A stretch of 64,000 nucleotides of DNA from Octopus sinensis (lineage: Eukaryota). Positions 2,366-52,379 of the stretch are shown piece after piece; the first letter of the stretch is position 1, and each line of letters starts with the position of its first letter. The translations under genes were made by a program, and so were the position numbers. The stretch is taken from assembly GCF_006345805.1 (NCBI RefSeq), contig NC_043008.1:25544001-25608000 (forward strand), read 5' to 3'. The notes beneath the pieces are model-generated. The model saw only the letters and a list, made by a program, of their open reading frames with translations. It did not search any database and was not told the origin of the DNA.

Positions 2366-4494
2366 AGCTAGCCGAATTGACAGTACCTTGGTAGTTAAAG
2401 CAATCAAGAGTATGAAGGCAAGGAAAGCTGTCAGTCCATCAGGAATCACTGCAGAGATGCTCAAGATATCTGGCAGTGTCAGCTGTAGCCTAGTCACCCA
2501 TATAGTTAACCAGGTGATACACGAAGGAGTCAGACCCAATGACTGGTGTAGCAGCATAATAGTCAACTGCTACAAAGGTAAAGGTGACGCTCTAGATTCA
2601 AATAATTACAGATGTATCAAGTTGCTGGATCAAGTAATGAAGGTCACAGAGAGGGTCATAGCCCAACTAATTAGAGAGAGAATCAGTTTAGATGAGATAC
2701 AGTTTGGGTTCGTGCCAGGGAAAAGTACCACTGATGCTATATTCCTGGTAAGACAGCCAAAGATAAACCTCTGTACCTAGTTTTCATTGACATGCAGAAA
2801 GCCTTTGACAGGTTCCCCCCCGATCCCTTATCTGGTGGTCAGTGAGGAAACTAGGAATAGGTGAATTGTTAGTGAGAGCTGTGCGAGCCATGTACAGGGA
2901 GCTGTTAGTAATGTGAGGGTTGGCAACGAGTACAGTGAAGAATTCCAGGTAGAGGTATGGGGTCCACCAAGGTTCAGTTCTCAGCCCCCTTCTATATATA
3001 ATGGTTCTCCAGGCAATAACGGAGGAATTCAAGACAGGATGCCCCTGGGAGCTCCTCTATGCTGATGACCTTGCTCTAATTGCTGAGTCACTATCAGAAC
3101 TGGAGGAGAAGTTTCAGGCATGGAAGCAAGAATTAGAATCAAATGGCCTTAGAGTCAACTTAGCTAAAACCAAAGTCCTAATAAGTAGGAAGGTAGACAA
3201 ATCACAAACGCCTTCAGGTAGATGGCTCTGCTCGATCTGTAGAAAAGGTGTAGGTAGAAACTCTATAAGATGCACCAAGTGTAAGCTATGGACACATAAG
3301 AGGTGCAGCAATGTCAAAGGAAGGCTAACTAGGAAGATAGTTTTTGTATGTGGCAGATGCTCAGGACCACTAAACACTGAAAATGCGCAGAGACCAACTT
3401 TCGCCACATTCCAGGGAGAAAAACTAGAAGTAGTTGATAGCTTCCATTACCTAGGTGACCAAGTCAGTAGCAGGCGTGGCTGTGCTGAAAGTGTAACGGC
3501 TAAAGTAAGAATAGCCTGGGCAAAGTTCAGAGAGCTCTTACCTCTACAGGTGACAAAAGACCTCTCGGTCAGAGTAAAAGGCAGACTGTATGACGCATGT
3601 GTATGAACAGCCATGCTACATGGCAGTGAAACATGGGCCGTGACTGCTGAGGATATGCGTAAGCTCGCGAGAAATGAAGCCAGTATGATCCGATGGATGT
3701 GTAATGTCAGTGTTCATACTCGACAGAGTGTAAGTACCTTGAGAGAAAAGTTGGACCTAAGAAGCATCACTTGAGGTGTGCAAGAGAGACATTTGCACTG
3801 GTATGGTCATGTAGTGAGAATGGATGAAGATAGTTGTGTGAAAAAGTGCCACATCCTAGCGGTTGATGGAATCTCTGAAAGAGGTAGAACCAGGAAAACC
3901 TGGGACGAGGTGGTGAAGCATGACATTCGAACATTAGGTCTCACCGAGGCAATGACTAATGACCGAGACCTTTGGAAGTATGCTGTGCATGAGAAGACCC
4001 AGCAGGACAAGTGAGACCATAATCTGTGGCCTCTACCTGGGATGTAGCCAGTCCACTTATGCATATCTTTCCTTCTTGGGACACAAAACTCTACTTGTGA
4101 AGACCTGTTGAGACAAGTGAAATCAAAATCAAAATCGATCAAAATCAATGGAAATTGTAGTTGTGATACCAGTGCCGGTGGCTCGTAAGAGAACCATCCA
4201 AACATGGCCTTTGCCAGCGTCGCCCCGACTGGCCTCCATGCCGGTGGCATGTATAAAGCACCACCCAATCGTGGCCATTGCCGGCCCCATCTGGCACCTG
4301 TGCCGGTGGCATGTAAAAAGCACCCACTACACTCATGGAGTGGTTGGCATTAAGAAGAGCATCCAGCTGTAGAAACACTGCCGGATCAGACTGGGCCTGG
4401 TGCAGCCTTCTGGCTTTCCAGACCCCAGTTGAACCGTTCAACCCATGCTAGCATGGAAAGCGGACGTTAAACGATGATGATGATAATGATGATG
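2366..4494 (+). mobile_element. RTE-clade LINE, 5'-truncated, frameshifted
   Basis: RT motifs KAxxPSGI, QFGFVPGKSTTDAIF, GVHQGSVLSP-like, LLYADDL, FHYLG, and C-terminal RxxWYGHVVRM. The ORF ends at 4014, followed by a 3' UTR ending GGACGTTAAAC(GAT)n. Contains stops and frameshifts. Confidence 0.95.
3001..3606 (+). pseudogene. RTE reverse transcriptase fragment (YADD) with inserted PHD-type finger
   Basis: ELLYADDLAL; C-x2-C-x10-C-x2-C-x4-H-x2-C-x14-C-x2-C at about 3229-3360; premature TGA at 3604-3606. Confidence 0.9.
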
Positions 4495-20338: not shown

Positions 20339-23300
20339 ATCATCATCATCATCATCATCGTTTAGCGTCTGCTTTCCATGCAGGCATGGGTTGGACGGTG
20401 CAACTGGGGTCTGGGAAGCCAGAAGGCTGCACCAGTCCCAGTCTGATCTGGCAATGTTTCTACGGCTGGATGCCCTTCCTAACGCCAACCACTCCATGAG
20501 TGTAGTGGGTGCTTTTTACGTGCCACCGGCACGGAGGCGAGGCGAGGCTGGCAAACGGCCACGGTCGGATGGTGCTTTCTACGTGCCACCAGTACTTAGG
20601 CCAGGCGAGGCTGGCAACGGCCACGATCGAATGGTGCTTTTTACGTGCCACCGGCACGGAAGCCAGTCACGGCGGCACTGGCAACGGCCACGTTCAGTTG
20701 GTTCTCTTATGTGCCACCAGCACTGATATCACAGCGACAATTTCCATTCATATTGATCAATTTTGATTTTTGGTTTTTTCATTTTTGATTTTTTGATTTT
20801 CACTTGCCTCAACAGGTTTTCACAAGTAGGGTTTTGTGTCCCAAGAAGGAAAGGTATGCATAAGTGGACTGAGGCCATGGGTGATGGTCTCACTTGTCCT
20901 GCCGGGTCTTCTCACGCACAGCATACTTCCAAAGGTATCGGTCTCTAGTCATTTCCTTGGTGAGACCTAAAGTTCGAAGGTCGTGCTTCATCCCAAGTTT
21001 TCGTGGATCAGCCTCTTCCACAGATTCCCTCAACAGCTAGGGTATGGCACTTTTTCACACAACTATCTTCATCCATTCTCGCCACATGGCCATACCAGCG
21101 CAAACATTTCTCTTGCACACTGCAACTGATGCTTCTTAGGTCCAACTCCTCTCTGAAAGTACTTACACTCTATCGAGTATGAACACTGACATTACACATC
21201 CATCGGAGCATACTGGCTTCATTTCTAGCGAGCTTACGCATATCCTCAGCAGTCACGGCCCATGTTTCACTGCCATGTAGCATGGCTGTTCGTACACAAG
21301 CATCATACAGTCTACCTTATACTCTGACCAAGAGGCCTTTTGTTCCCAACAGAGGTAAGAGCTCTCTGAACTTTGCCCAAGCTATTCTTACTCTAGCAGT
21401 TACACTTTCAACACACCCGCCCCCGCTACTGACTTGGTCACCTAGGTAACAGAAGCTATCAACTATTTCTAGTTTTTCTCCTTGGAAAGTGACGGAAGTT
21501 GGTCTCAGAGCATTTTCAGTGTTTATTGCTTCTGAGCATCTGCCACATACAAAAACTATCTTCCTAGTTAGCCTTCCCTTGACATTGCTGCACCTCTTGT
21601 GTGTCCATAGCTTATACTTGGTGCATCTTATAGAGTTTCTACACACGCCTTTCCTACAGATCGAGCAAGGCTATCTACCTGAAGGCGTTTGTGACTTGTC
21701 TACCTTCCTACTTATTAGGACTTTGGTTTTAGCTAGGTTGACTCTAAGGCCCTTCGATTCTAATCCTTGCTTCCACACCTGAAACTTCTCCAGTTCTGAT
21801 AGTGACTCAGCAATTAGAGCAAGGTCATCAGCATAGAGGAGCTCCCAGGGGCAACCTGTCTTGAATTCCTCCGTTATTGCCTGGAGGACTACAATAAATA
21901 GGAGGGGGATGAGAACTGAACCTTGGTGGACCCCTACCTCTACCCGGAATTCTTCACTGTACTCGTAGCCAACCCTCACCTTACTAGCAGCGTCCCTGTA
22001 CATGGCTTGCATAGCTCTCACTAACCATTCATCTATCCCTAGTTTCCTCATTGACCACCAGATAAGATATCGGGGGACCCTGTCGAAAGTTTTCTCCATG
22101 TCAACCAAAGCCTGGTACAGGGGCTTATCTTTGGCTAGATATTTCTCCTGCAGCTCTCTTACCAGGAATATAGCATCAGTGGTGCTTTTCCCTGGCATGA
22201 ATCCAAACTGCATCTCATCTAAACTAACTCTCTCTCTAATTAGTTGGGCTATGACCCTCTCTGTAACCTTCATTACCTGATCCAACAGCTTGATACCTCT
22301 GTAATTATTTGTATCTAGGGCGTCACCTTTACCTTTGTAGCAGTTGACTATTATGCTGCTACACCAGTCATTGGGTATGACTCCTTCGTGTATCACCTGA
22401 TTAACTATATGGGTGAGTAGGCTATAGCCGACACTACCAGATATTTTGAGCATCTCTGCATTGATTCCTGATGGGCCTGGGGCTTTCCCTGTCTTCATGC
22501 TTCTAATTGCCTTAACTACCAAGGAACTGTCAACTCGGATAGCTGGTCCCTCTGTTGGGACAACATTCGGCAGACTCTCTTTATCCCATTCATTTTCTTC
22601 ATTCAGCAACCTTTCATAGTGGCATCTCCACACCTCTCTCTTTGCATCCTCATTTAGCGCAAGTGAACCATCATCCATGCGAACACATTTCTCTCCTACC
22701 ACATCACGATTCTCTCTCACACACTGTCTCGCAACGCGAAATACCTCAAGTCTTTGGTCCTCATGGTGCAGAACATTGGCAAATTTTTTCTTATCTGCTT
22801 CCCCTCTGGCTAAATAAACCTGTCTCCTAGCTTCTCTTTTGGCAGTCTGATACAATTCCCTGCTACCCCCATTTTTCCAGTCCTTCCAAGCCTGTCTCTT
22901 TTCTCTAATAGCCCTGTCTACAACATTGTTCCACCACCACGTTATTCTAGGTCGAGAGGGGACTTTGCACCAGCCACAGATCTGGTCAGTGGCTCTCAGC
23001 AGGTTGTCTCTTAGAAACGTCCAGTTGTCTTCTACCCCCTGTGATGCTCTATCCCCTTCTACTTCGTCAAAGGCTTCAAGTAATATGTCCCTAAATCTCT
23101 GTCCATTTGCAGGATCTTTAAGCTTCCAGATCCTTCTTCTCCATGTTGGTTGTCTTTCTTGTCGTCCTCTTAATCCTGATCCTAAAGTCACTAACTACCA
23201 GTCTATGTTGTGGGGTACATTCTTTGCCTGGGAAGGTTTTGGCATTTATAAGCAGCCATCTTTCCCTTTTCCTGGCAAGGATGTAGTCAATTTGGCTGGT

Positions 23301-23705
23301 ATGTCGACCCGATTGGTAGGTGACTAGGTGGCTGGTAGGTTTCCTGAAGTTAGCGTTGCAAACCATGAGATCATTTGCGTCACAGAACTCCAGGAGCCTG
23401 GTTCCCTCCTCGTTGCGGGAACCATAGCCATAGCCTCCATGTACACCATAGAAGCCCCCAGCATGTTTTCCAACATGCCCATTGAAATCACCAGCCACAA
23501 AGAGAAGGTCTCTGTCGTTCGTCAACGAGGTAGTCTGCAGTAAGGTGTCATAGAATTGGTCTTTCTGTCCATCAGGTAGCCCTGGCTGAGGGGCATAGGC
23601 CGATATAATGGTTGCTAATCCATGATGAAGCACTATTCTAATCTTAGGTATTCTGTCACTTACTCTGATTACCTCAAGTACCTTATCTACCAATTTTTCA
23701 GCGAG
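20339..23705 (-). mobile_element. RTE-clade LINE, near-complete (5'-truncated in APE), frameshifted
   Basis: APE (SAYAPQ, GDFNGHVG, SQIDYIL, QHRLVV) at 23118-23693; RT (QFGFMPGKSTTDAIF, GVHQGSVL, YADD) at 21671-23191; PHD-type finger and C-terminus to about 20890; 3' UTR with (GAT)n tail at 20339. Confidence 0.97.
21671..23191 (-). pseudogene. RTE reverse transcriptase, 506-aa open segment ending at a premature TAG (W codon in the other copy)
   Basis: Full RT motif set. The stop corresponds to TGG in the copy at 3223. Confidence 0.92.
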
Positions 23706-24101
23706 AAAATATGTATATATAAATGTATGAATATGAGTGGGAGTATTTATGTCAGTTCCTGTCTCTTTACCACGATGTTATACGATACATGTAAACAGAT
23801 ATCACTTTTATTTCTATTCTTCCCTGAAAACACATCTGGTTATGGAGAATGTTAACTTACTTGAAACTGTTAAAGTTTGGTGACAGGAAGAGTATCTGTC
23901 TGTAGGAAATCAGCTTCAACGAATTCTGTCCAAACCCATGCAAGCATGAAACAGTAACATGAAATGATGAGTATGATGATGATGAAATATATATATATAT
24001 ATATATATAAGACTTTCTCTATTACTGAGTGTTATACTAATACATCTGTTTGTTTTGTACACCTCCTGTCTTTGTCTTTTGTTTTTTTCGTAAACTCTCC
24101 C

Positions 24102-24858: not shown

Positions 24859-24921
24859 AATGATGATGATGATGATGATAATGATGATGATGATGATGAT
24901 AATAATAATAATAATAATAAA
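24727..24921. repeat. Compound (CAT)n/(GAT)n/(AAT)n microsatellite
   Basis: Direct reading. Confidence 0.95.
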
Positions 24922-24922
24922 T

Positions 24923-25476
24923 GCCCTGATGCAGTACCAGGCAGCGGCTCTCATGGCTTCTGATCTTAACTGATTGGAAGTGTTATCATGTACATTGTTT
25001 TGTCTTGGTATAAAAGATGGACTACAGCAAATATTCTGCTTAATACCACAGATTTGCTTGTCAGTTGTTTGACCGTAACCAGTTGAGCATGTCCTTAGTA
25101 GCTGACGATATGTGCATCTCTGATCACGTGTAGAAGTAGTGGGGGAGCATCATAGCCATGTGTTGAGAGGGATTCTTTGGGGTTTGAATGATTCACCTCT
25201 GGAAACATGGGTGTTTCATTCAACTTCCATAAACAACCCTTAATCAGGGACATTTTGAGTGGGATGGGTTACCCAACCAGAAGAAAATTCTAACTGGGCC
25301 CCACCCACAAAGTCATGCGCTGTTTATCTTGTTATGAGATCACCATGTAGAGCACATATGGTTGTGATGCATGTGCCTGGTGTACCCTTATCAGATGGGT
25401 AGTCATGATGGGTATACTGGGCTTCGTATATTTGTACCCCAGTGTCACTTTGATGGTATGCACTGCTCTCTCACTC
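24923..25476 (+). mobile_element. ~555-bp (AAT)n-associated non-autonomous retroelement, copy A (candidate 5S-derived SINE)
   Basis: Starts GCCCTGATGCAGTACC and ends GCACTGCTCTCTCACTC-(AAT)n. Six copies in the window; no conserved ORF. Confidence 0.85.
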
Positions 25477-25488
25477 AATAATAATGAT

Positions 25489-25936
25489 AAATATTCTGCT
25501 CAATACCACAGATTTGCTTGTCAGTTGTTTGATCTTAACCAGTTGAGCATGTTCCTTAGTGGCTGATAATATGTGCATCTCTGATCATGAGCAGAAGTAG
25601 TTGCGGGGCATCATAGTCATGTGTTGAGAGGGACTCTTTGGGGTTTGAATAATTCACCTCTGGAAACATGGGTGTTTTGTTCAATATCCTTAAACAACCT
25701 TTATTCAGTGACCTTTTGAGTAGGATGGGCTACTCAACCAGAAGAAAATTCTAACGGGGCCCCACCTGCAAGGTCATGTGCTGTTTGTCTTGATATGAGA
25801 TCACAATGTTGTGCACATATGTTTGTGATGCATGTGCCTAATGTACCCTTATCAGACAAGTAGTCATGATGGGTATACTGGGGTCTGTATATTTTCCCCC
25901 AGTGTCACTTTGATGGCATGCACTGCTCTCTCACTC
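25489..25936 (+). mobile_element. 555-bp element copy B (5'-truncated, tandem)
   Basis: Begins internally at AAATATTCTGCTCAATACC; same 3' end plus (AAT)n. Confidence 0.85.
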
Positions 25937-26044: not shown

Positions 26045-26104
26045 AATAATAATAATAATAATGGTTTCAAATTTTGGGACAAGCAATTGGGGCATGTGGG
26101 TAAT

Positions 26105-28740
26105 CCAATCTGAACCTGTCAGCCAGCTGGAAACGACTGAGCAGGTTTGCGAGGGTTGCACACACGTTTTCTTTCCGCTAGCTCCACCAAATCCACACGT
26201 GCATCCTAGATGGCGTTGCTGTCACCCACTAACACTGAAGAACAAGACGTCCCTAGAAAGACCTCCAAACGTCTGGAGAAATCCAGCTGCTCCAATCCAG
26301 CCGAAGCATACAGAGTGACCAGTCTAAAAGCACTGCCTTCATTATCGTTCATGTCAAAGACCACCGACTTACCTTCCAGGTCCAGGAAGACCAACCGTAT
26401 CTCGAGATCCAGGCTTTTTCTGAACAACACTGCCACCCCACCCATCTTTCCCGGTTGACTAAAATCCTCAAAAATAGGTGCTAAGGTACGTGTGTCTGCG
26501 ATCCTGGTCTCACTGATGTCTATTATCTCCAAATTCAGTCATCTGAGGTCATTGAGCAAGCAACCTTGCTTCCAGGATGACCACAGGCCTCATACATTTA
26601 TGCAGCCTGCTCTTAGCACCGCCATATTTGCCTCAAAGGAAGGAAAGAAAGGAGTGTTACTTATCCTTCCTGTACCGTTGGAGATCAGGTGGTCCCACCT
26701 CCATTTCTTCGTTGGGTTCCTTTGAGAACCCTTGTAGAAGTCTTGCATTGGTATTTACTTGAGGGATCCCGACATTGTCTGGAAAGGCATCCCTAATTGT
26801 TTAGAAAGTGTCCCTTCATGATAAGAGGGTCATCAGCTTTTGTTGGCTCTCCTTACTAACACAAAGTTAGCTGCTTGCTTCATTGTTTTTTGCTGTTCTT
26901 GTTGCATTTGTGGTGTGTATTTCTTTTGGGGATTTTTTTTTTGCCTGCAGTGGGGGTTTTGGTGCTTGTGGTGCTTTAGTTGATGACTGTGGTGCTGCAG
27001 GAATTGTCTGAGTGTCTGCGTTTGTTGTGGGTGTGGGTGTAGTTTCCTTGTTATCTTGTTTTGGTCCAGGACAAGATGTCTTGCCTCTGTGATTTCTTTT
27101 AGTTTTTTTTTATTTACTCTGTTCCCCCTCATCATCAGTTTCCAATATCGTAGAACCAGTGTTTGTTGCAACCTCCTCCTCTCTGTGTGGAAGTGAATTC
27201 GTGTTTGTGTGTGTATCTTTTCTACGTGTTTGTTTGCAGGAGGGGAAGTTGTCGAGCTTGGTTGCAAGATGTTGGTTTCATGGTTGACCTCCTCGGCGGT
27301 TTTCTTGCTGGTGCTGTTGTTATGTCTGTCACCACCACCACCATTGTTACTTGTTTTTGCTGCTTTCCCTGTTGGTGGTGGTGATCTTTCTACAACTGGT
27401 GCTGTTTTTGTTTTCCCAGACTTGGTGTTGGTGTCAATGGAGGCCTACGCTGAGGGTAGCGTGCTTGAGGCTGACATAGTCTGGGATGTTCAACTCTTGT
27501 AATTTTATTTGAATTATCATTTCAAAATCCATCTCCTCCCAGTCTTCTCTTTGTGTTCATTGGACTTTTAGGAGGAGAGTGTTGCTGCCTTCCCCAATGA
27601 CACATCCCACGAGCCACTATATGATACCTGATGTTATTCGAACTTTCATTGTTCTTTTGCCCATGTAGGATGGGTACATTATAAGCTGGTCAGTTTTACG
27701 GGATCCCACCCAATGCTTCATAGCCAGCTCTTCTGTTTTAAAAAGGACTGAGATGGTACCAAAACTCCAGGCCCTTTGAATAAATTTGACCTTGTCTCTG
27801 ATTGATCTCAGTGTCATCTCCACATGAAGGTGGGAGGGTTGTTCTGCTCTCCAAGACTGCACCGAGATGTGTATATACTTTACTGTACTCTTCTCAATTT
27901 CTACTTCCACTTTAGTTGGGATTACAAGGTTCGCCCAGGTTTTTCTCTTTTTATGAGTTTGTGAGCCAGGGCCCACATCTCTTTTTGTTGGAGATGTCTA
28001 TCACTTAGTACTCTTGTTGGCATTTCGCAGCTGCTGCTGCAAAAGTGATTGTTCCACTCTCACTGTTGTTACTGCTATTGTTATTTCCAAATACACCTGC
28101 CTCTCTGCTGCTGGTATCAACGTTGGTATCGGTTGTGTTCTCATCGATGTTTTTGTTGTCGTTATTTGTTCTGTTATTGTTTTCTGTTTAGATTCTCTGC
28201 TCTGTGTTGTTGGAGTTGTTATTTTCTATCTTGTTATCAATTATCATAGTATTTTCCACATAATTTCTGTTTTGGGAGTTGGCAGTTACATTTTTGTTGT
28301 CTTTTCAACTACTGAGTGATCGCGTGGTTTCCATTGTGTCGCTTTTCTCAGTCAAAACATTTCTTTGTTCTTTGTGGTTAATTTTATTGCTGTCCATAGA
28401 GTCTTTGGTGGTTTGGGATTCATTATCAATTTTGTCCCCGAAATTGTTTCTTGAGTCAGCAAAAATTACATTTCCATGACTTTTCCTGCGATCACAAACT
28501 GGTTTGTTTTGTATTAAAAAGTTATGTCCCTCCACGCCATTTCTTGCTTGTGAACATGTAAACATTTTGCAAATACTTATATTTGGGTACAAGGCCCAAA
28601 TATTATTTAGTTCTTTTTTTCTGGGGACAAAGACTATTGTTTTATGCTCCTTTTTAAACAATAATATCAACGAAGACAGTAATTTTAATAACAAAAATAT
28701 TTGTCAAGTTTCCACTGACATTCTACCCTTCCAACTGGAA
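26105..28740 (-). mobile_element. L1/Tx1-clade LINE, 5' half (ORF1 + APE), decayed
   Basis: APE motifs ISET, GGVAVLF, EGKSVV, RLVTLYA, LVGDSNAI (26206-26532). Upstream ORF1-like segments (27617-27976; K/Q/T-rich linker 26833-27500). No RT retained. Confidence 0.75.
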
Positions 28741-28745
28741 GTATG

Positions 28746-29149: not shown

Positions 29150-29268
29150 GAACGAACTACTGAGTTTGGTTTAATGGCCTACCAATGTATACTATGAGTT
29201 TCTTTGCCCTAGGAGTCGGGAAGACACTCGGCAAGAAATGGAAGCAAATTTGAAAGAAGAAAAAAAAA

Positions 29269-29270: not shown

Positions 29271-29309
<39 letters not shown>

Positions 29310-29310
29310 T

Positions 29311-29864
29311 GCCCTGATGCAGTACCAGTCAGTGGCTCTCATGGTTTTTTATCTTAAATGATTGGAAGTGTTATCATGTACATTGTTTTGTCTTGGTATA
29401 AAAGATGAGCTACAGCATATATTCTCCTCAATACCACAGATTTGCTTGTCAGTTGTTTGATCTTAACCAGTTGAGTATGTCCCTTAGTGGCTGACGACAG
29501 GTGCATCTCTGAACACAAGCAGAAGTAGTGGGTGAGCATCATAGCCGTTTGTTGAAAGGAATTCTTAGAGGTTTGAATAATTCACCTTTGGAAACAGGGG
29601 TGGTTTGTTCAACATCCTTAAACAATCCTTATTCAGGGACCTTCTTAGTGGGATGGGCTACTCGACCAGAAGTAAATTCTAACTGGGCCCCACCTGCAAA
29701 GTCATGCAGGTTTTATCTTGATATGCGATCACCATGTCGCGCACATATACTTGTGATGTGTGTGCCTGGTGTATCCTTATCAGACGGGTAGTCATGATGG
29801 GTATACAGGGCTTTGTATATTTTCCCCCAGTGTCACTTTGATGGCATGCACTGCTCTTTCACTC
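29311..29864 (+). mobile_element. 555-bp element copy C
   Basis: Same 5' and 3' ends; inside (AAT)n. Confidence 0.85.
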
Positions 29865-31539: not shown

Positions 31540-32245
31540 AAGGGAATTGACCACTTTGTTTCTGGTTGCTCTATACTAGTCACAAACGAATACATTATTT
31601 GAGAAAATAGACTTAGCCAATAAATGCACTGCCTCATCTGCTGAGGAAACCTGGTGGGAACACAAACCTGCCAAAATAGCAGAAAAGAAAAATATCCCCA
31701 TTCTTTGAAACTTTTGTATCCAAATTGATAGTGCCAATAGACTAGATATTATAGTAAAAAATCACATAGACAAAACATGTCTGCTCATAGATATGTCAAT
31801 CCCATCAGACAGCAATATCCCTGAAAAATTACTTGTTAAATTAAGTTAATACAAGAGTAAATATGTGGCATCCAGGAGCAGCAACTGTACCTTTAATCAT
31901 TGGAGCTGTGGGGACAGTATCAAAAGACACTCTTAAACACTATAGCCAAATATCAGGAAACCTCAAGGCATCAGATCTACAAAAAACTGCTCCCATGTGT
32001 ACTGCCCACATCTTAAGCAATATATTATCAACTTAAAAAACCCATTGATTCTCTTAAAACTCTATCAAAAATGAAATATTATAAATAAAACAGAATCTTA
32101 GTTCTCAGATTCTGACCTCTTTCAAATACACTGTATTATTGCTAATTATGAATAACACCCATGGTAAAATATTTAACTTGCAGTTACTTGAAGTCTCTGG
32201 ATGAAATTTGGAACAGCTACTATAAAACAAAGCAAGAATAATGAA
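31540..32245 (+). pseudogene. Decayed Dong/R4 RLE domain and 3' UTR (separate family)
   Basis: Remnants NRLDIIV..KTCLLIDMSIPSD, PLIIGAVG, QKTAPMCTAHIL; ends in an AAT/GAT tract. Confidence 0.75.
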
Positions 32246-46195: not shown

Positions 46196-46208
46196 AATAA
46201 TAATAATG

Positions 46209-46243
<35 letters not shown>

Positions 46244-46265
46244 TATAATAATGATGATAATAATA

Positions 46266-46320
<55 letters not shown>
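46196..46320. repeat. (AAT)n microsatellite
   Basis: Direct reading. Confidence 0.95.
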
Positions 46321-46321
<1 letters not shown>

Positions 46322-46929
46322 CCCTGATGCAGTACCATGCCCTGATGCAGTACCATGCCCTGATGCAGTACCTATGCCCTGATGCAGTACCAGGCAGTGG
46401 CTCTCATGGCTTCTGATCTTAACTGATTGGAAGTGTTATCATGTACATTGTTTTGTCTTGGTATAAAAGATGGGCTACAGCAAATATTCTGCTCAATACC
46501 ACAGATTTGCTTGTCAGTTGTTTGACCTTAACCAGTTGAGCATGTCCCTTAGTGGCTGACGATATGTGCATCTCTGATCACGAGCAGAAGTAGTGGGGGA
46601 GCATCATAGCCATGTGTTGAGAGGGATTCTTTGGGGTTTGAATAGTTCACCTCTGGAAACATGGGTGCTTCATTCAACATCCTTAAACAACCCTTATTCA
46701 GGGACCGTTTGAGCGGGATGGGCTACTCAACCTGAAGAAAATTCTAACTGGGCCCCACCTGCAAGGTCATGTGCTGTTTATCTTAATATGAGATCACCAT
46801 GTCGCGCACATATGGTTGTGATGCAGGTGCCTGGTGTACCTTTATCAGACGGGTAGTCATGATGGGTATATTGGGCTTCGTATATTTTACCCCAGTGTCA
46901 CTTTGATGGCATGAACTGCTTTCTCACTC
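46321..46929 (+). mobile_element. 555-bp element copy D with 4x stuttered 5' end
   Basis: GCCCTGATGCAGTACC at 46321, 46339, 46357 and 46376, then the full body. Confidence 0.88.
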
Positions 46930-46960
<31 letters not shown>

Positions 46961-46979
46961 CTGGTAATAATAGTAATAG

Positions 46980-47985
46980 ACCAAGCAACATCCCATCAGT
47001 AGCTGAGAAGTTCAGAACTGAAAGCAGAAACTGAAGATTTCTTATTGGTAGCATAAGATCAAAGCTTGCTTACCAGAAACTATCAGGCTGACATTCTTCA
47101 AAACAGTTCTGACTCTAAATGCAGATTCTGCAACATATTTGATGAAATGACAGACCATCTCATTTTGAGATGTGCTGACACCAAATGAATATGTAAACAC
47201 TACAAAATCAGCACTCCTGCATACTTGTACAAACATCATCCTGAGTCAGTTGTTGAAGGTAAAAATGTCACTATCCTCTGGGATTTTCCAGTCAACACCG
47301 ACAGAACAATCCAGTTTAATTGACCAAACATAGTTATTAAAGACATGGAAGAAATTACCTGTCACCTGATTGGCCCTCATACTGGTGGTATGTAAAAGCA
47401 CCCACTACACTCTTGGAGTGGTTGGCATTAGGAAGGGCATCCAGCTGTAGAAAATCTGCCAGATCAGATTGGAGCCTGGTGCCGCCATCTGGTTCACCAG
47501 TCCTCAGTCAAATCGTACAACCCATGGCAGCATAGAAAATGGACGTTAAATGATGATGATGATGATGTCCCCACTGATAAAAATATGTCTGTAAAGGAAT
47601 TTGACAAATTAAGCAAATATGTAAACATGGAAATTGAAATACAAAAGATATGACATCTTAATGCAAGAACTGTTCCTGTTATTGTAGGTGCCATAGATAT
47701 GATGAAAGAGGGATATCAGAAATCTCTAGGCAATATCACAGGAGAACCGTGTCTCAGAGAAATCCAAAAGATTGTGCTGATAAGTACTACCTATATCCTT
47801 AGAAAAAACCTTGTCAATTTAAATGTCTGTGTTGTATTATATGAAGATATTTTGCTATTGCCCCAGCCACTTTCCCTCCCCAACCTTTCAGTCATAATGT
47901 AACATCTCTTATCCTTCACTCACCCTAGGGTGCTGTGTGTGTCTTGACAAGTGATTGTAACAAACATGCAGATTAAAAGTAAATA
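46980..47985 (+). pseudogene. Decayed Dong/R4 3' part (another family) interrupted by an RTE 3' tail (about 47375-47566)
   Basis: LRSSELKAETEDFLL...DQSL.TRNY, TILWDFPVNTDRTI, VPTDKNMSVKEFDKLSKY, VPVIVGA, EIQKIVLISTTYILRK. An RTE (GAT)n tail is inserted between LI and VPTD. Confidence 0.85.
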
Positions 47986-48130: not shown

Positions 48131-50526
48131 GGTCACCCAGGCACTGCAAAGACTAAGCAACTGGAAGGCACCTGGGCATGACAAGATCCCCAACTTCTGG
48201 TTGAAATATCTAACAGGAATGCACAAAAAGCTGGCTGAAAACTTTAACAACATACTAGCAGAGCCAGAGACAATGCCTGAATGGCTCACGAAGGGGAAAA
48301 CCATCTTAATTCCCAAATCAAATGAAACAGAAAAACCAGAAAACTACAGACCAATAACCTGCCTCCCTACTATGTTCAAGACATTTACTGCAGTGATATC
48401 ACAAAGGCTGAACAAGCACCTGGACGAAAACAAACTGTTCCCAGAAGAGCAGAAAGGATGCCGCAAAGGCTCATATGGCTGTAAAGATCAACTAATGATT
48501 AATAAAGCCATAACTGAAGACAGCCACAGAAAGAAGAAAGGCCTCAGTATGGCCTGGATTGACTACAAAAAGGCATTTGATAGCATCCCCCACACATGGA
48601 TCCTCGAAACACTAGCCATTAACAAAGTAGCACCAACAATCATAAAATTCATAGAGCACTCTATGAATAAATGGCAAACAGTCCTACACCTCCAAACAAA
48701 AGAGGGACTCATGAAAACCAAAGATATCCCCATTAGAAGAGGAATATTCCAGGGAGACATGCTCTCTCCACTCCTTTTCTGCTTGGCACTGTCACCTCTA
48801 TCTGATATACTAAATAGAACTGGATGCGGATATAAATGTTACGGCAAAACGATCAGCCACCTTTTATATATGGATGACCTAAAACTATACGCTGCAAATG
48901 ACAAACAGCTGGAAACACTATTAAAGACAGTTCATGGATCTACCAAAAAAATAGATATGAAATTTGGATTAGAAAAATGCGCCAAAGTAACCATGAAAAG
49001 AGGAAAACTAGTTAAGAGTAACAACATCACACTAGATAAAACCAATGAAATAAAAGAATTAGACCAAAGCCAAACTTACAAATACTTAGGAATCCATGAA
49101 CTAGATAAGACACAACACACACAAATGAAAGAGAAAGTAAAGAAAGAATATTATAGACGAGTTAGATCAATACTAAAAACAAAACTCAATGCTAAAAACA
49201 AGATAATAGGTATCAACACTTTAGCTGTCCCAGTTATAAGTTACAGCTACAATATCTTTAACTGGACACGAAATGAACTGACCAAAATAGATAGGAAAAC
49301 AAGAAAAATAATGACAGGATCTAGGATGCATCACCCAAAATCTGACATAGAAAGACTATATATACAACGTATAGAAGGTGGTAGAGGCCTTATACAGCTG
49401 GAAAACTACTATAAAATAACCACCATAGGACTGCAAAAATATCTACTTCAGAAGGAAGGAAAACTGATCCAGATAGCGGCAAAACACGAGCAAAACAAAA
49501 AACTGTTCTCAGTATTTAAGGAAGCTGACAAATACAAACAAGAAATCATACCACCTAATAAACATGAAGAAGAAGAAGAAGAAGATGAAGAAACAACAAA
49601 AGCTATAAAACAAATGAAATCCAAACTAAAAATAGAACAGCAACGAACCATGATAAAACGATGGCAAGAAAAGCCCCTTCATGGTAAATACTGGACTAAA
49701 CTAAACGCAAAAGAAATAGACAAAGAAAAATCCCAGCAATGGTTGAGAAGCTCAGGACTCAAAGCAGAAACAGAGGGATTTTTAATTGCAGCACAAGACC
49801 AAAGCCTCCCCACCAGAAATTACCAAAAACATGTAATGAAAAGAAATATTACAAGTAACTGCAGAATATGTGGAGATGGACAAGAAACAATAAATCATAT
49901 TATCTCTAGCTGCCCAGTCCTGGCTAAGAAGGAATATATTCACAGACATGACAGAGTTGGAACCTACATACATTGGAAGCTATGCCAACATTATGGAATA
50001 ACAACAGAAAAAAGATGGTATAGGCACACACCAGAAAAGGTCACAAAAAACGAGAAAGCAACCATACTCTGGGATATGCCAATACACACAGATAGAGAAA
50101 TTAAGGCCAACAGACCAGATATAGTTGTCAGAGATCATGAAGAAAAAAAATGCTTTCTAATTGCTGTATCAATACCGGCAGATGACAACGTGTCTCTAAA
50201 AGAAATGGAAAAACTCTCATAATACAAAGACCTGGAAATAGAGGTAACTAGAATGTGGAATCTGAAAACAGAAACAATTCCTATCATAGTCGGTGCATTA
50301 GGCATGATAAAAAAATATTCAGACAAATACATAACAAACACACCAGGACTTACAAACACATATAACATACAGAAAATTGCACTACTAGGCACTGCACACA
50401 TCCTACGCAGAACACTTTCCATACAATAACCATCAGAGCATCACAACAAATCACAGCACATACCCAAGGCACACAGAGCTGCGCTCAGTAGTGAAGTGAA
50501 AGCACGCTATAAAAATAAAACTACTG
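48131..50526 (+). mobile_element. R4/Dong RLE non-LTR retrotransposon, 5'-truncated, inserted in (AAT)n
   Basis: Flanked by (AAT)n on both sides. RT, CCHC finger and RLE domain, then a short 3' UTR ending AAAACTACTG(AAT)n. Dong elements are established TAA-repeat-specific elements. Confidence 0.95.
48132..50429 (+). pseudogene. Dong/R4 RT-RLE polyprotein (one premature stop at 50220-50222)
   Basis: WKAPGHD, NYRPITCL, EEQKG, WIDYKKAFDS, GIFQGDMLSP, YMDD, YKYLG, CRIC..ETINHIISSC, RHD, RPDIVV. SKY is mutated to S*Y; the frame continues to ...HILRRTLSIQ*. Confidence 0.93.
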
Positions 50527-50594: not shown

Positions 50595-50602
50595 TAATAA
50601 AC

Positions 50603-51463
50603 GCCCTGATGCAGTACCAGGCAGTAGCTCTCAAGACTTCTGACCTTAACTGAATGGAAGTGTTATCATGTACATTGTTTTGTCTTGGTACACAAGATGA
50701 ACTACAGCAAATATTTTGCTCAATACCACAGATTTGCTTGTCAGTTGTTTGACCGTAACCAGTTGAGCATGTCCTTTGGTGGTTGACGATATGTGCATCT
50801 CTGTTCATGAGCAGAAGTGGTGTGGGAGCATCATAGCCATTTGTTAAGAAGTGTTCTTTGGATTTGGATTATTCACCTCTAGAAACTTCAGTGTTTTGAG
50901 CAGGATGGGCTACTCAGCCTGAAGAAAATTCTAACTGGGTCTCACTTGCAAAGCCATGCAGTTTTTATCTTGATACAAGATCACTATGTTGCACACAAAT
51001 GGTTGTGATGCATGTGCCTAGTGTACCCTTATCTGATGGGTAGTCATGCTGGGTATACTGGGCTTTGTATATTTTTACCTCAGTGTTGCTTCAATGGCAT
51101 GTATTGCTCTCATTCAGGTATAAAAAGATGGGCTACAGCAAATAGTGTGGAAGCATCATAGCAATGTGTTCAGAGGGATTCTTTGGGGTTTGAATAATTC
51201 ACCTCTGGAAACATCCTTAAATAACTCTTATTCAGGGACCTTTTGAGTGGGAAGGGCTACTCAACTTGAAGAAAATTCTAACTGGGTGCTACCTGCAAGG
51301 TCATGTGCTGTTAATCTTGATATGAGATCACCATGTTGTGCACATATGATTGTGATGCATGTGCCTGGTGTACCCTTATCAGACGGGTAGTCATGATGGG
51401 TATACTGGGCTTTGTATAGTTTATCCCAGTGTCACTTTGATGACATGCACTGCTCTCTCACTC
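50603..51463 (+). mobile_element. 555-bp element copies E (50603-51115) and F (51117-51463), both with internal deletions
   Basis: Same 5' start after (AAT)n. F is fused directly behind E and ends CTCTCTCACTC(AAT). Confidence 0.85.
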
Positions 51464-52379
51464 AATAATAATAGTAATAATCCTTTCTATTATAGGCACA
51501 AGGACTGAAATTATAGAGGAGTATGTTAGTTGATACACTGACCCCAGCACTTGAGTGGTACTTATTTCATTGACCCCCCCCCCCAAAGGATAAAAGGCAA
51601 AGTTGACCTTAGCAGAGTTTAAACTCAGAATGTAAAGACACTTGAAATACTGTTTTGCATGCATGCATACATACAGGCATACATACATACATACATACAT
51701 ATATACATAGATACATACATACTTACATATATACATACATGCTCAGATGCATACACATGCAGAGAAACAGAGATAGATAGTTGGAGAGAGAGAGAGAGAG
51801 AGAGAGCAGGGACAGGAGTAGGTGAACAAATGAAGAAAGTTACACTCATCACATTCTCTTGGAGTTGTATTTAATAACAGCTTGACTCATATCTGCATTT
51901 TAAGTTTTCATGGATGTAGAACATGTCTGCATGGTCAGATGTGCAGAGTCAAATGTGTGTCTGTGTGTATGCGTGCATGTGAGTGTGTATAAAGAAAGAA
52001 AGAGAGAATCCAGTGTACATCATATGTATTAATGTGTGTGTGTGTGTATGTATATGTATATATATATATTTACATGTATATATATATGATGCTTATAATA
52101 TGGATGCATATATTTATGCTTATAATATGGATGTATATAAACTTTTAAATGCCATTAGTATACACATGTACTTACACGTGTTATATAGTTGCTTGTTTAT
52201 CTGATTATCTCAGTAAATCCAGTTAGGAAATGTTGTCAGAAATAATTGAATGAAAAGACCACAGGTCAGAGTTGGAGTGTTGTTATTGTTTATGTTGTTG
52301 TTGTGGTGGTGATAGTGTTGGTGGCAGTAGCTACCACTACTTCTCTTGCTCTTAATGCTGTTTAAGAAGTAACATCTAT

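What the first reader, a model, noticed from the sequence alone, without database searches (positions are those of the whole stretch)
46321..46929. Candidate 5S-rRNA-derived SINE that targets (AAT)n microsatellites alongside Dong/R4 retrotransposons
Seen: a ~555-bp non-coding element in six copies (24923, 25489, 29311, 46321/46376, 50603, 51117). All lie on the + strand within (AAT)n nests that also hold Dong ends. Four copies share the 5' start GCCCTGATGCAGTACC, truncated copies lose only 5' sequence, and the 3' end CTCTCTCACTC runs into AAT (except E, fused to F). No tRNA A/B boxes seen. The first ~150 nt have motif blocks colinear with metazoan 5S rRNA: GCC..TACCA / GATCT..CTGAT.GGAAG..TTA.CA / GTA...GATGGG.TAC (C-box-like) / AATACC...TGCT.GT. 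The 5' CTGA can pair with TCAG at the end of the head, like helix I. Established: SINE3 elements use the 5S internal Pol III promoter, and Dong inserts in TAA repeats. Inference: a highly diverged SINE3 mobilised in trans by a sequence-specific RLE element, an unusual pairing. Its 3' end does not visibly match the Dong UTRs in this window, so the partner is unidentified.
Basis: partly seen in the sequence, partly recalled or inferred. Interest (0 to 1): 0.75.

Follow-up and report, generated by a model that had tools for sequence, protein, structure and literature searches.

The report
Non-coding hitchhiker of AAT-seeking retrotransposons
This is a real, very abundant 556-base non-coding repeat, in what is likely an octopus genome, that sits in AAT repeats facing the same way as Dong jumping genes and likely borrows their enzyme, but its front end shows no sign of coming from 5S ribosomal RNA.

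Summary
The element is real: six copies in the window, and at least 7,406 exact 3' ends and 6,152 exact 5' ends in the genome. It sits in (AAT)n in one orientation. 5,648 of 7,406 tails run straight into AATAAT and 3,257 of 6,152 heads follow an AAT-type run (background 0.13% and 0.5%).

The 5S head is not supported. Rfam finds nothing, the head scores at shuffle level against the host's own 5S, and boxes A and C are at chance level. A weak internal match at nt 100-213 (p about 0.01-0.06) is the only trace.

Mobilisation by Dong is likely. The element shares Dong's strand and 3' phase, and its tandem 5'-end duplications (11 of 84 copies; Dong1 3 of 5). Its tail fits a hairpin motif that covaries across Dong 3'UTRs, but only weakly (best E 0.015). 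No autonomous partner sharing its ends was found. A separate MITE carries nt 103-272.

Verdict: a Dong-dependent non-autonomous retroposon with a head of unknown origin, not a SINE3.

The parts
46196..46320 (+). (AAT)n run upstream of the copy; inferred pre-existing target
   Evidence: AAT-type 5' flank in 69 of 84 full-length and 28 of 55 5'-incomplete pieces
46319..46373 (+). three tandem copies of the element's first 18 nt; the same kind of duplication occurs at Dong1 5' ends
   Evidence: 11 of 84 element copies; 3 of 5 full-length Dong1 copies, with 4, 9 and 5 units
46374..46929 (+). reference copy (D) of the 556-nt non-coding element; 1.7% non-CpG divergence from the sample consensus
46374..46476 (+). 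head of unknown origin; predicted long hairpin closed by GCCC/GGGC; no 5S, tRNA or HDV-ribozyme match
46476..46645 (+). nt 103-272, shared (164 of 170 identical between consensuses) with a separate ~490-bp inverted-repeat MITE
46473..46586 (+). weak, non-significant colinear resemblance to the whole host 5S rRNA (nt 100-213)
46830..46892 (+). predicted 3' hairpin with a 5-nt GGGTA apical loop and a downstream TACCC that could pair with it; resembles the Dong 3'UTR motif (weak statistical support)
46930..46959 (+). (AAT)10 directly after the 3' end, in the same phase as at Dong 3' ends
24921..25476 (+). copy A, full length
25489..25936 (+). copy B, 5'-truncated, stacked behind A
29309..29864 (+). 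copy C, full length
50601..51116 (+). copy E, older, internal deletion, fused to F
51117..51463 (+). copy F, 5'-truncated with two internal deletions
48131..50526 (+). 5'-truncated Dong1 (R4-clade LINE: RT, zinc knuckle, PD-D-type C-terminus) between AAT runs; candidate enzyme donor
   Evidence: full-length relative L067 (1226 aa) has R2 proteins as its only PDB matches
46969..47981 (+). decayed 3' fragment of a second Dong family with another repeat inserted in it

Best explanation
It is a non-coding, non-autonomous retroposon whose RNA is likely reverse-transcribed into (AAT)n microsatellites by the enzyme of the resident Dong (R4-clade) LINEs, and whose head is of unknown origin rather than 5S rRNA. 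Shown: fixed 5' and 3' ends, variable 5' truncation, no homology to the Dong protein, thousands of copies, AAT on both sides in Dong's orientation and 3' phase, and Dong-like tandem 5'-end duplications. Inferred: the Dong endonuclease nicks the repeat and primes reverse transcription at the RNA's 3' end. Recognition would use the 3' hairpin, a diverged remnant or mimic of the Dong 3'UTR motif (about 0.55), plus pairing of read-through AAU repeats with the target. The duplications would arise when the enzyme re-primes near the 5' end of the template. Transcription is untested; an internal RNA polymerase II promoter, as proposed for LP-SINEs and bipartite LINEs, is my best guess (about 0.5), because the element has three T4 runs and no B box or 5S control region.
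For: Genome counts: 7,406 tails and 6,152 heads; 5,648 of 7,406 tails followed by exactly TCAATAAT and 3,257 of 6,152 heads preceded by an exact AAT-type 8-mer, against background 0.13% and 0.54%. In fetched loci, 119 of 125 3' ends were followed by AAT and 0 of 125 by ATT; an AAT-type 5' flank was seen in 69 of 84 full-length copies, background 3.7%. Many 5'-truncated copies also abut AAT at different break points, so the 5' run is target rather than part of the element. 60 Dong 3' ends in 15 clusters were collected by requiring a downstream (AAT)n or (AAC)n run on the coding strand. Tandem 5' duplications occur in both the element and Dong1. The Dong 3'UTR hairpin covaries across families: 13 of 15 pairs change on both sides, and 0 of 500 shuffles reach the covariation score. 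The element tail is the only site in the element consensus shown to fit a descriptor of it (12 of 500 shuffles) and aligns to a Dong-only model in the expected register (11.8 bits, E 0.015 in the best copy). The three common variants in the element's stem keep pairing. Dong targets TAA repeats (PMC3812793, PMC7998251, passages).
Against: No autonomous family sharing the tail was found. The best sequence match to a Dong UTR was 19 of 25 nt (12 of 300 shuffles; one of 193 flanks tested). No recurrent foreign loose end appeared among the 24 shown of 1,373 in four runs. A Dong-motif-plus-tail pattern gave one hit, an element fragment. The Dong-only model found none of the six window copies at E up to 10, scored copy D at 4.5 bits, and a model from the two most similar families found none either; the 11.8-bit copy was chosen as the best seen. 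The descriptor was written after I had seen the element, matches only 19 of 60 Dong UTRs, and allows a bulge. One common variant in run X19 (T>A at 46871, about a third of depth) breaks a predicted pair. Only 28 of 55 5'-incomplete pieces had an AAT-type flank (this set includes pieces split by later insertions and five MITE pieces). A control tRNA-like SINE also had AAT or ATT at the 5' flank in 19 of 81 copies in the same AAT-rich loci. No activity was tested.
Confidence: 0.75

Rival explanations
1. It is a short internally deleted (bipartite, SIDE-like) form of a Dong family that I did not sample or that is extinct: the head is that family's 5'UTR and the tail its 3'UTR. This is a special case of the best explanation with a defined origin.
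For: The tail resembles the Dong 3'UTR motif; no small-RNA head was found; at least 15 Dong 3'-end clusters exist and I saw 5' regions of only two. R2 SIDEs keep only the 5' ribozyme and 3'UTR (PMC3774820, passages).
Against: No similarity to the Dong1 5'UTR or to the 5' region of the family with the most similar tail; no protein remnant; all 30 head-pattern loci continue into element sequence; no recurrent foreign loose end among those shown.
Confidence: 0.3
2. It is a highly diverged SINE3, transcribed by RNA polymerase III from a 5S-derived control region; or it descends from one whose 5S part now lies at nt 100-213 behind a newer head.
For: The whole host 5S aligns colinearly to nt 100-213 at p about 0.01-0.04 in six of seven end-to-end schemes; the best hit of a host-5S model in the element falls in the same region (6.5 bits, E 0.1; 12.4 bits in copy C, E 0.096 in 28 kb); that region starts where the head hairpin ends.
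Against: The head is at chance level; no RF00001 hit at E up to 10; best 60-nt identity is 52% in the head and 58% internally, below the 60% SINEBase criterion (PMC3531059, passages); control-region boxes at chance level; T4 runs at nt 78, 334 and 512; simple repeats outscore it with the 5S model; the blast-like local schemes show nothing. Limit: the tRNA-like control SINE head also did not beat its shuffles against 22 host tRNAs (27 of 100), so these tests can miss old heads.
Confidence: 0.08
3. It makes its own AAT tail by slippage and is mobilised by a non-specific or different LINE (RTE, CR1, Tx1); the AAT on both sides comes from target duplication, later repeat growth and stacking.
For: Many SINEs and LINEs end in tandem repeats; a tRNA-like SINE in the same loci often has ATT/AAT at both ends (19 of 81 at the 5' side); earlier notes describe a Tx1 family in the same repeats (e1-9939279, unchecked).
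Against: Long 5' runs abut both full-length and truncated copies; orientation matches Dong, whereas the APE-type element in the window's AAT nest lies on the opposite strand; the tandem 5' duplication is shared with Dong1.
Confidence: 0.12

Closest known systems
EhSINE1 / EhLINE1 of Entamoeba histolytica (PMC2996970, passages; that EhLINE1 is an R4-clade, restriction-like-endonuclease LINE is recalled, not seen in a call)
   Same: 500-600 nt non-coding element with no identified small-RNA precursor and no canonical Pol III boxes, dependent on a LINE
   Different: EhSINE1 shares about 70 nt with its LINE and inserts without a fixed target; this element has a fixed microsatellite target and no clear shared sequence
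R2 SIDEs of Drosophila (PMC3774820, passages and section 16)
   Same: non-autonomous passenger of a sequence-specific R2-group LINE, same target and orientation as the helper
   Different: SIDEs keep the HDV-like ribozyme and recognisable R2 3'UTR and target 28S rDNA; here no HDV fold at the 5' end, no parent found, tens of thousands of dispersed copies
Dong elements (Bombyx Dong, DongAg, DongBg, ostracod Dong; 'Dong-R4' in octopus annotations; PMC3812793, PMC7998251, PMC13282606, PMC8967140, passages)
   Same: (TAA)n target, strand and 3' phase; tandem 5' duplications as in this genome's Dong1
   Different: no ORF homology; head unrelated to the two 5' regions seen; Bombyx Dong has a self-cleaving 5' ribozyme, not detected here
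LP-SINEs of gastropods and bivalves (PMC4758252, section 10 and passages)
   Same: molluscan SINE-like elements without a small-RNA head, possibly Pol II transcribed
   Different: their head is a recognisable LINE 5' segment and they have ordinary target duplications; homology to their head was not tested here
SINE3 (5S rRNA-derived SINEs; PMC5786205 and PMC3531059, passages)
   Same: length under 700 nt, non-coding, LINE-dependent
   Different: no 5S-derived head and no control-region boxes above chance

Membership tests
SINE3 | 5' head with at least 60% identity to 5S rRNA over at least 60 nt | tested here: not met
   52% best in the head, 58% internally; no Rfam hit; host-5S model E 0.38 in the head via a short hairpin only
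SINE3 | 5S internal control region (box A, intermediate element, box C) | tested here: not met
   best matches reached by 169, 187 and 83 of 300 shuffles
SINE3 / SINE | transcription by RNA polymerase III | not testable with these tools
   only assembled contigs were available; three T4 runs argue against
SINE2 (tRNA-derived) | tRNA-like head with A and B boxes | tested here: inconclusive
   no ARAGORN or Rfam hit; best B-box score -0.1 bits in the head versus 7.8 in a control SINE; alignment to 22 host tRNAs of few isotypes at chance for both element and control
SINE (SINEBase definition) | short, interspersed, at least 100 copies, non-coding | tested here: met
   556 nt; 7,406 exact tails; no ORF of 150 aa or more and no Dong protein homology
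Dong-dependent element | insertion in (TAA/AAT)n in the helper's orientation and phase | tested here: met
Dong-dependent element | 3' tail shared with the helper's 3'UTR | tested here: inconclusive
   structure-level resemblance only; no partner
Dong-dependent element | mobilisation by Dong protein shown experimentally | not testable with these tools
   needs an assay
SIDE / bipartite non-autonomous LINE | both ends homologous to one autonomous LINE | tested here: inconclusive
   no match to the two Dong 5' regions seen; the other families' 5' ends were not obtained
SIDE / Bombyx Dong | HDV-like ribozyme at the 5' end | tested here: inconclusive
   no fold with P1 at the 5' end in the element or in Dong1; the descriptor had no positive control and hit 12 of 40 shuffles; no Rfam ribozyme hit
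MITE / DNA transposon | terminal inverted repeats | tested here: not met
   ends are not inverted (sequence); the 3' end is fixed and 5' ends are variably truncated
LP-SINE | head homologous to the LP-SINE LINE-derived 70-bp segment | not tested

The most novel reading that the evidence does not exclude
An animal retroposon at roughly 20,000-50,000 copies parasitises a sequence-specific Dong/R4 enzyme with neither a small-RNA head nor a shared tail sequence. It presents a structural mimic of a newly noticed Dong 3'UTR recognition motif (stem, YYWAG bulge, 5-nt NGGNW loop) and uses its own unknown promoter or ribozyme. It would be a natural minimal cargo RNA for AAT-targeted insertion.
Probability: 0.35. 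Interest if true: 0.62.

Novelty: new variant of a known kind. Interest (0 to 1): 0.4.

Why it matters
Passengers of sequence-specific R2-group LINEs are rarely described: one survey lists only RTE, Ingi, Vingi and R2 as sources of bipartite non-autonomous LINEs (PMC5786205, passages). A Dong passenger this abundant, with copies under 1% from the consensus, would define which RNA features a Dong enzyme needs. The covarying Dong 3'UTR hairpin gives a directly testable recognition signal. The result also removes an unsupported SINE3 label.

Tried and rejected
5S head: Rfam, host-5S alignments, profile and covariance model all negative. In one search the row labelled '5S_rc' is the sense 5S, because the loci lie on the minus strand.

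Coding remnant of Dong: a frame resembling the Dong C-terminus at about nt 287-325 was not supported by tblastn or a 29-sequence profile.

Conserved SINE body domain: the segment shared with another family belongs to a MITE. The MITE carries CpG-decayed alleles at two sites and none of the element's ends, so capture from the element is the likelier direction (inferred).

HDV ribozyme: none found at the 5' end; no positive control.

Autonomous partner: not found by pattern, by 60-nt flanks of 30 tail loci read by eye, by 30 head loci, or in the loose ends shown.

A-to-G hyperedited copies: none among the non-MITE pieces.

Expression: no RNA holder listed; all runs laid were contigs, so start sites could not be seen.

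Literature: nine searches listed no paper describing this element. Repbase, Dfam and SINEBase could not be searched. The octopus genome paper PMC4795812 is not held. The supplement of PMC13282606 was listed but not read; that paper counts 893 unclassified active SINE families, so the element may already be in a repeat library without a description.

Full report
Observation. The six copies are at the stated places. The element is 556 nt and begins ATGCCC at 46374; 46319-46373 holds three tandem copies of its first 18 nt. Copies E and F have internal deletions, so loss is not only from the 5' end. The host is likely an octopus; this is inferred from the repeat content and earlier notes, not from a call that names it.

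Abundance and age. An exact 24-nt 3' motif occurs 7,406 times and an exact 24-nt 5' motif 6,152 times. Among copies met incidentally, 4 of 21 had the exact tail and 3 of 11 the exact head, giving about 39,000 (18,000-136,000) and 23,000 (10,000-102,000) copies. Four copies in 200 kb of evenly chosen stretches give about 54,000 (15,000-139,000). 80 near-full-length copies lie 0.4-12% from their consensus; the sample is biased to young copies. Runs from six coded organisms hold at least two thirds of its words, and run X19 has common variants that are rare in the other three runs laid.

Target. 5,648 of 7,406 tails are followed by exactly TCAATAAT and 3,257 of 6,152 heads are preceded by an exact AAT-type 8-mer; background is 0.13% and 0.54%. 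In fetched loci, 119 of 125 3' ends run into AAT and none into ATT. 69 of 84 full-length copies and 28 of 55 5'-incomplete pieces have an AAT-type 5' flank by regular expression; several failures are copies whose 5' duplication sits between them and the run, and five pieces are MITE fragments that my filter missed. Truncated copies breaking at different points still abut AAT, so the 5' run is target. A control tRNA-like SINE had AAT or ATT at its 5' flank in 19 of 81 copies in these AAT-rich loci, so some enrichment comes from the sample.

5S test. I took the host's 5S genes. The head scores at shuffle level in every scheme; nhmmer found nothing; Rfam gave no 5S hit at E up to 10. Best 60-nt identity in the head is 52%, and boxes A, IE and C match no better than shuffles. 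A host-5S covariance model hits the head only through a short hairpin (E 0.38). One weak signal remains: the whole 5S aligns to nt 100-213 (8-39 of 1000 shuffles in six of seven end-to-end schemes, 119 in the seventh; 30-66 in four local schemes and nothing in three; E 0.1). It misses the SINEBase criterion of 60% over 60 nt (PMC3531059, passages). No B box was found, and there are T4 runs at nt 78, 334 and 512. These tests can miss old heads: a control tRNA-like head did not beat its shuffles against the 22 host tRNAs obtained.

Helper. The window's long ORF encodes RT and a zinc knuckle; a full-length relative (1226 aa) has R2 proteins as its only PDB matches. At least 150 near-identical copies exist. 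The loci hold 60 Dong 3' ends in 15 clusters. Dong elements target TAA repeats (PMC3812793, PMC7998251, passages), and five Dong-R4 families are listed as recently active in O. vulgaris (PMC13282606, first third of the text and passages). Three of five full-length Dong1 copies carry 4-9 tandem copies of their first 22-23 nt, as do 11 of 84 element copies. I read this as a signature of the same enzyme (inferred).

Tail. No Dong UTR matches the tail significantly by sequence. The UTRs share a stem, a YYWAG bulge and a hairpin with a 5-nt NGGNW loop; in 25 sequences of nine families, 13 of 15 pairs change on both sides, and 0 of 500 shuffles reach the covariation score (the sequences are related, so this is not a probability). 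The element has a similar arrangement at 46830-46876, with a TACCC at 46888-46892 that could pair with the loop. A descriptor fits only this site among the hits shown and 12 of 500 shuffles, but I wrote it after seeing the element and it finds 19 of 60 Dong UTRs. A Dong-only model finds held-out Dong UTRs in the window, misses Dong1's own UTR and all six element copies at E up to 10, gives copy D 4.5 bits and the best copy 11.8 bits, E 0.015. Six of 18 weak hits in 30 further loci are element tails. A model of the two closest families found none. The tail is therefore suggestive, not shown.

Partner search. No autonomous element sharing the ends was found. I saw 5' regions of only two Dong families, so an internally deleted origin stays open. 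[quoted passage not shown]

MITE. Loose ends in three runs led to a ~490-bp element with CACTG..CAGTG inverted ends and TTA/TAA flanks. All 30 loci found by its right end carry part or all of nt 103-272; the consensuses are 164 of 170 identical. The MITE has A and T where the element keeps CpG, so capture from the element is likelier. No empty MITE was seen.

Comparison and verdict. It works like an R2 SIDE or EhSINE1 (PMC3774820, PMC2996970, passages) but fails SINE3 membership and has no demonstrated parent. Nine paper searches listed no description of it; repeat libraries were not searchable, and PMC8967140, PMC9115989, PMC4758252 and PMC5786205 were seen as passages (PMC4758252 also section 10). 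New variant of a known kind; interest 0.4.

Noticed in passing
L128-L146, L177-L206 (e.g. L133:1403-1900): A ~490-bp MITE with CACTG..CAGTG ends, long imperfect inner inverted arms and TTA/TAA flanks carries 170 nt of the element; 100 exact right ends in the genome. L179 is a chimera that also holds a full element head.
   Followed up: yes
Dong 3'UTRs, e.g. window 29195-29261, 32175-32239, 47911-47978; alignment A2: A stem-bulge-hairpin motif with a 5-nt NGGNW loop covaries across nine Dong families; in some the loop could pair with a downstream CCAG or TACC. I did not search the literature for this motif.
   Followed up: partly
L068, L071, L073 (Dong1 5' ends): Full-length Dong1 copies start with 4-9 tandem copies of their first 22-23 nt; no HDV-like fold was detected there, unlike Bombyx Dong.
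   Followed up: partly
window 26063-28745, minus strand: 5' part of an APE-type LINE (weak Exo_endo_phos match, E 0.004) lies between AAT runs in the orientation opposite to Dong; fits earlier notes on a Tx1-like family.
   Followed up: partly
L101:716-800, L106, L066, L219: An ~80-nt tRNA-like SINE ends in (AAT)n but its 5' flanks are not AAT, so it seems to carry the tail without seeking the repeat.
   Followed up: partly
window about 51480-51650 (minus strand); L229 and many loci: An abundant tRNA-like SINE with an (ATT)n tail often has ATT/AAT at its 5' flank too (19 of 81); its tails may supply Dong targets.
   Followed up: partly
L094 near 1475: The last ~52 nt of the element are joined directly behind a tRNA-like SINE head: a possible template-switch chimera.
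   Followed up: no
L010, L167: An internal piece of the element ending at about nt 230 sits directly before a full-length copy in two loci, which may reflect template jumps from a broken RNA.
   Followed up: no
window 21671-23777 (minus) and 2366-4324: LINE pieces with RT, AP-endonuclease and a PHD-like finger, likely CR1-type (label from recall).
   Followed up: no
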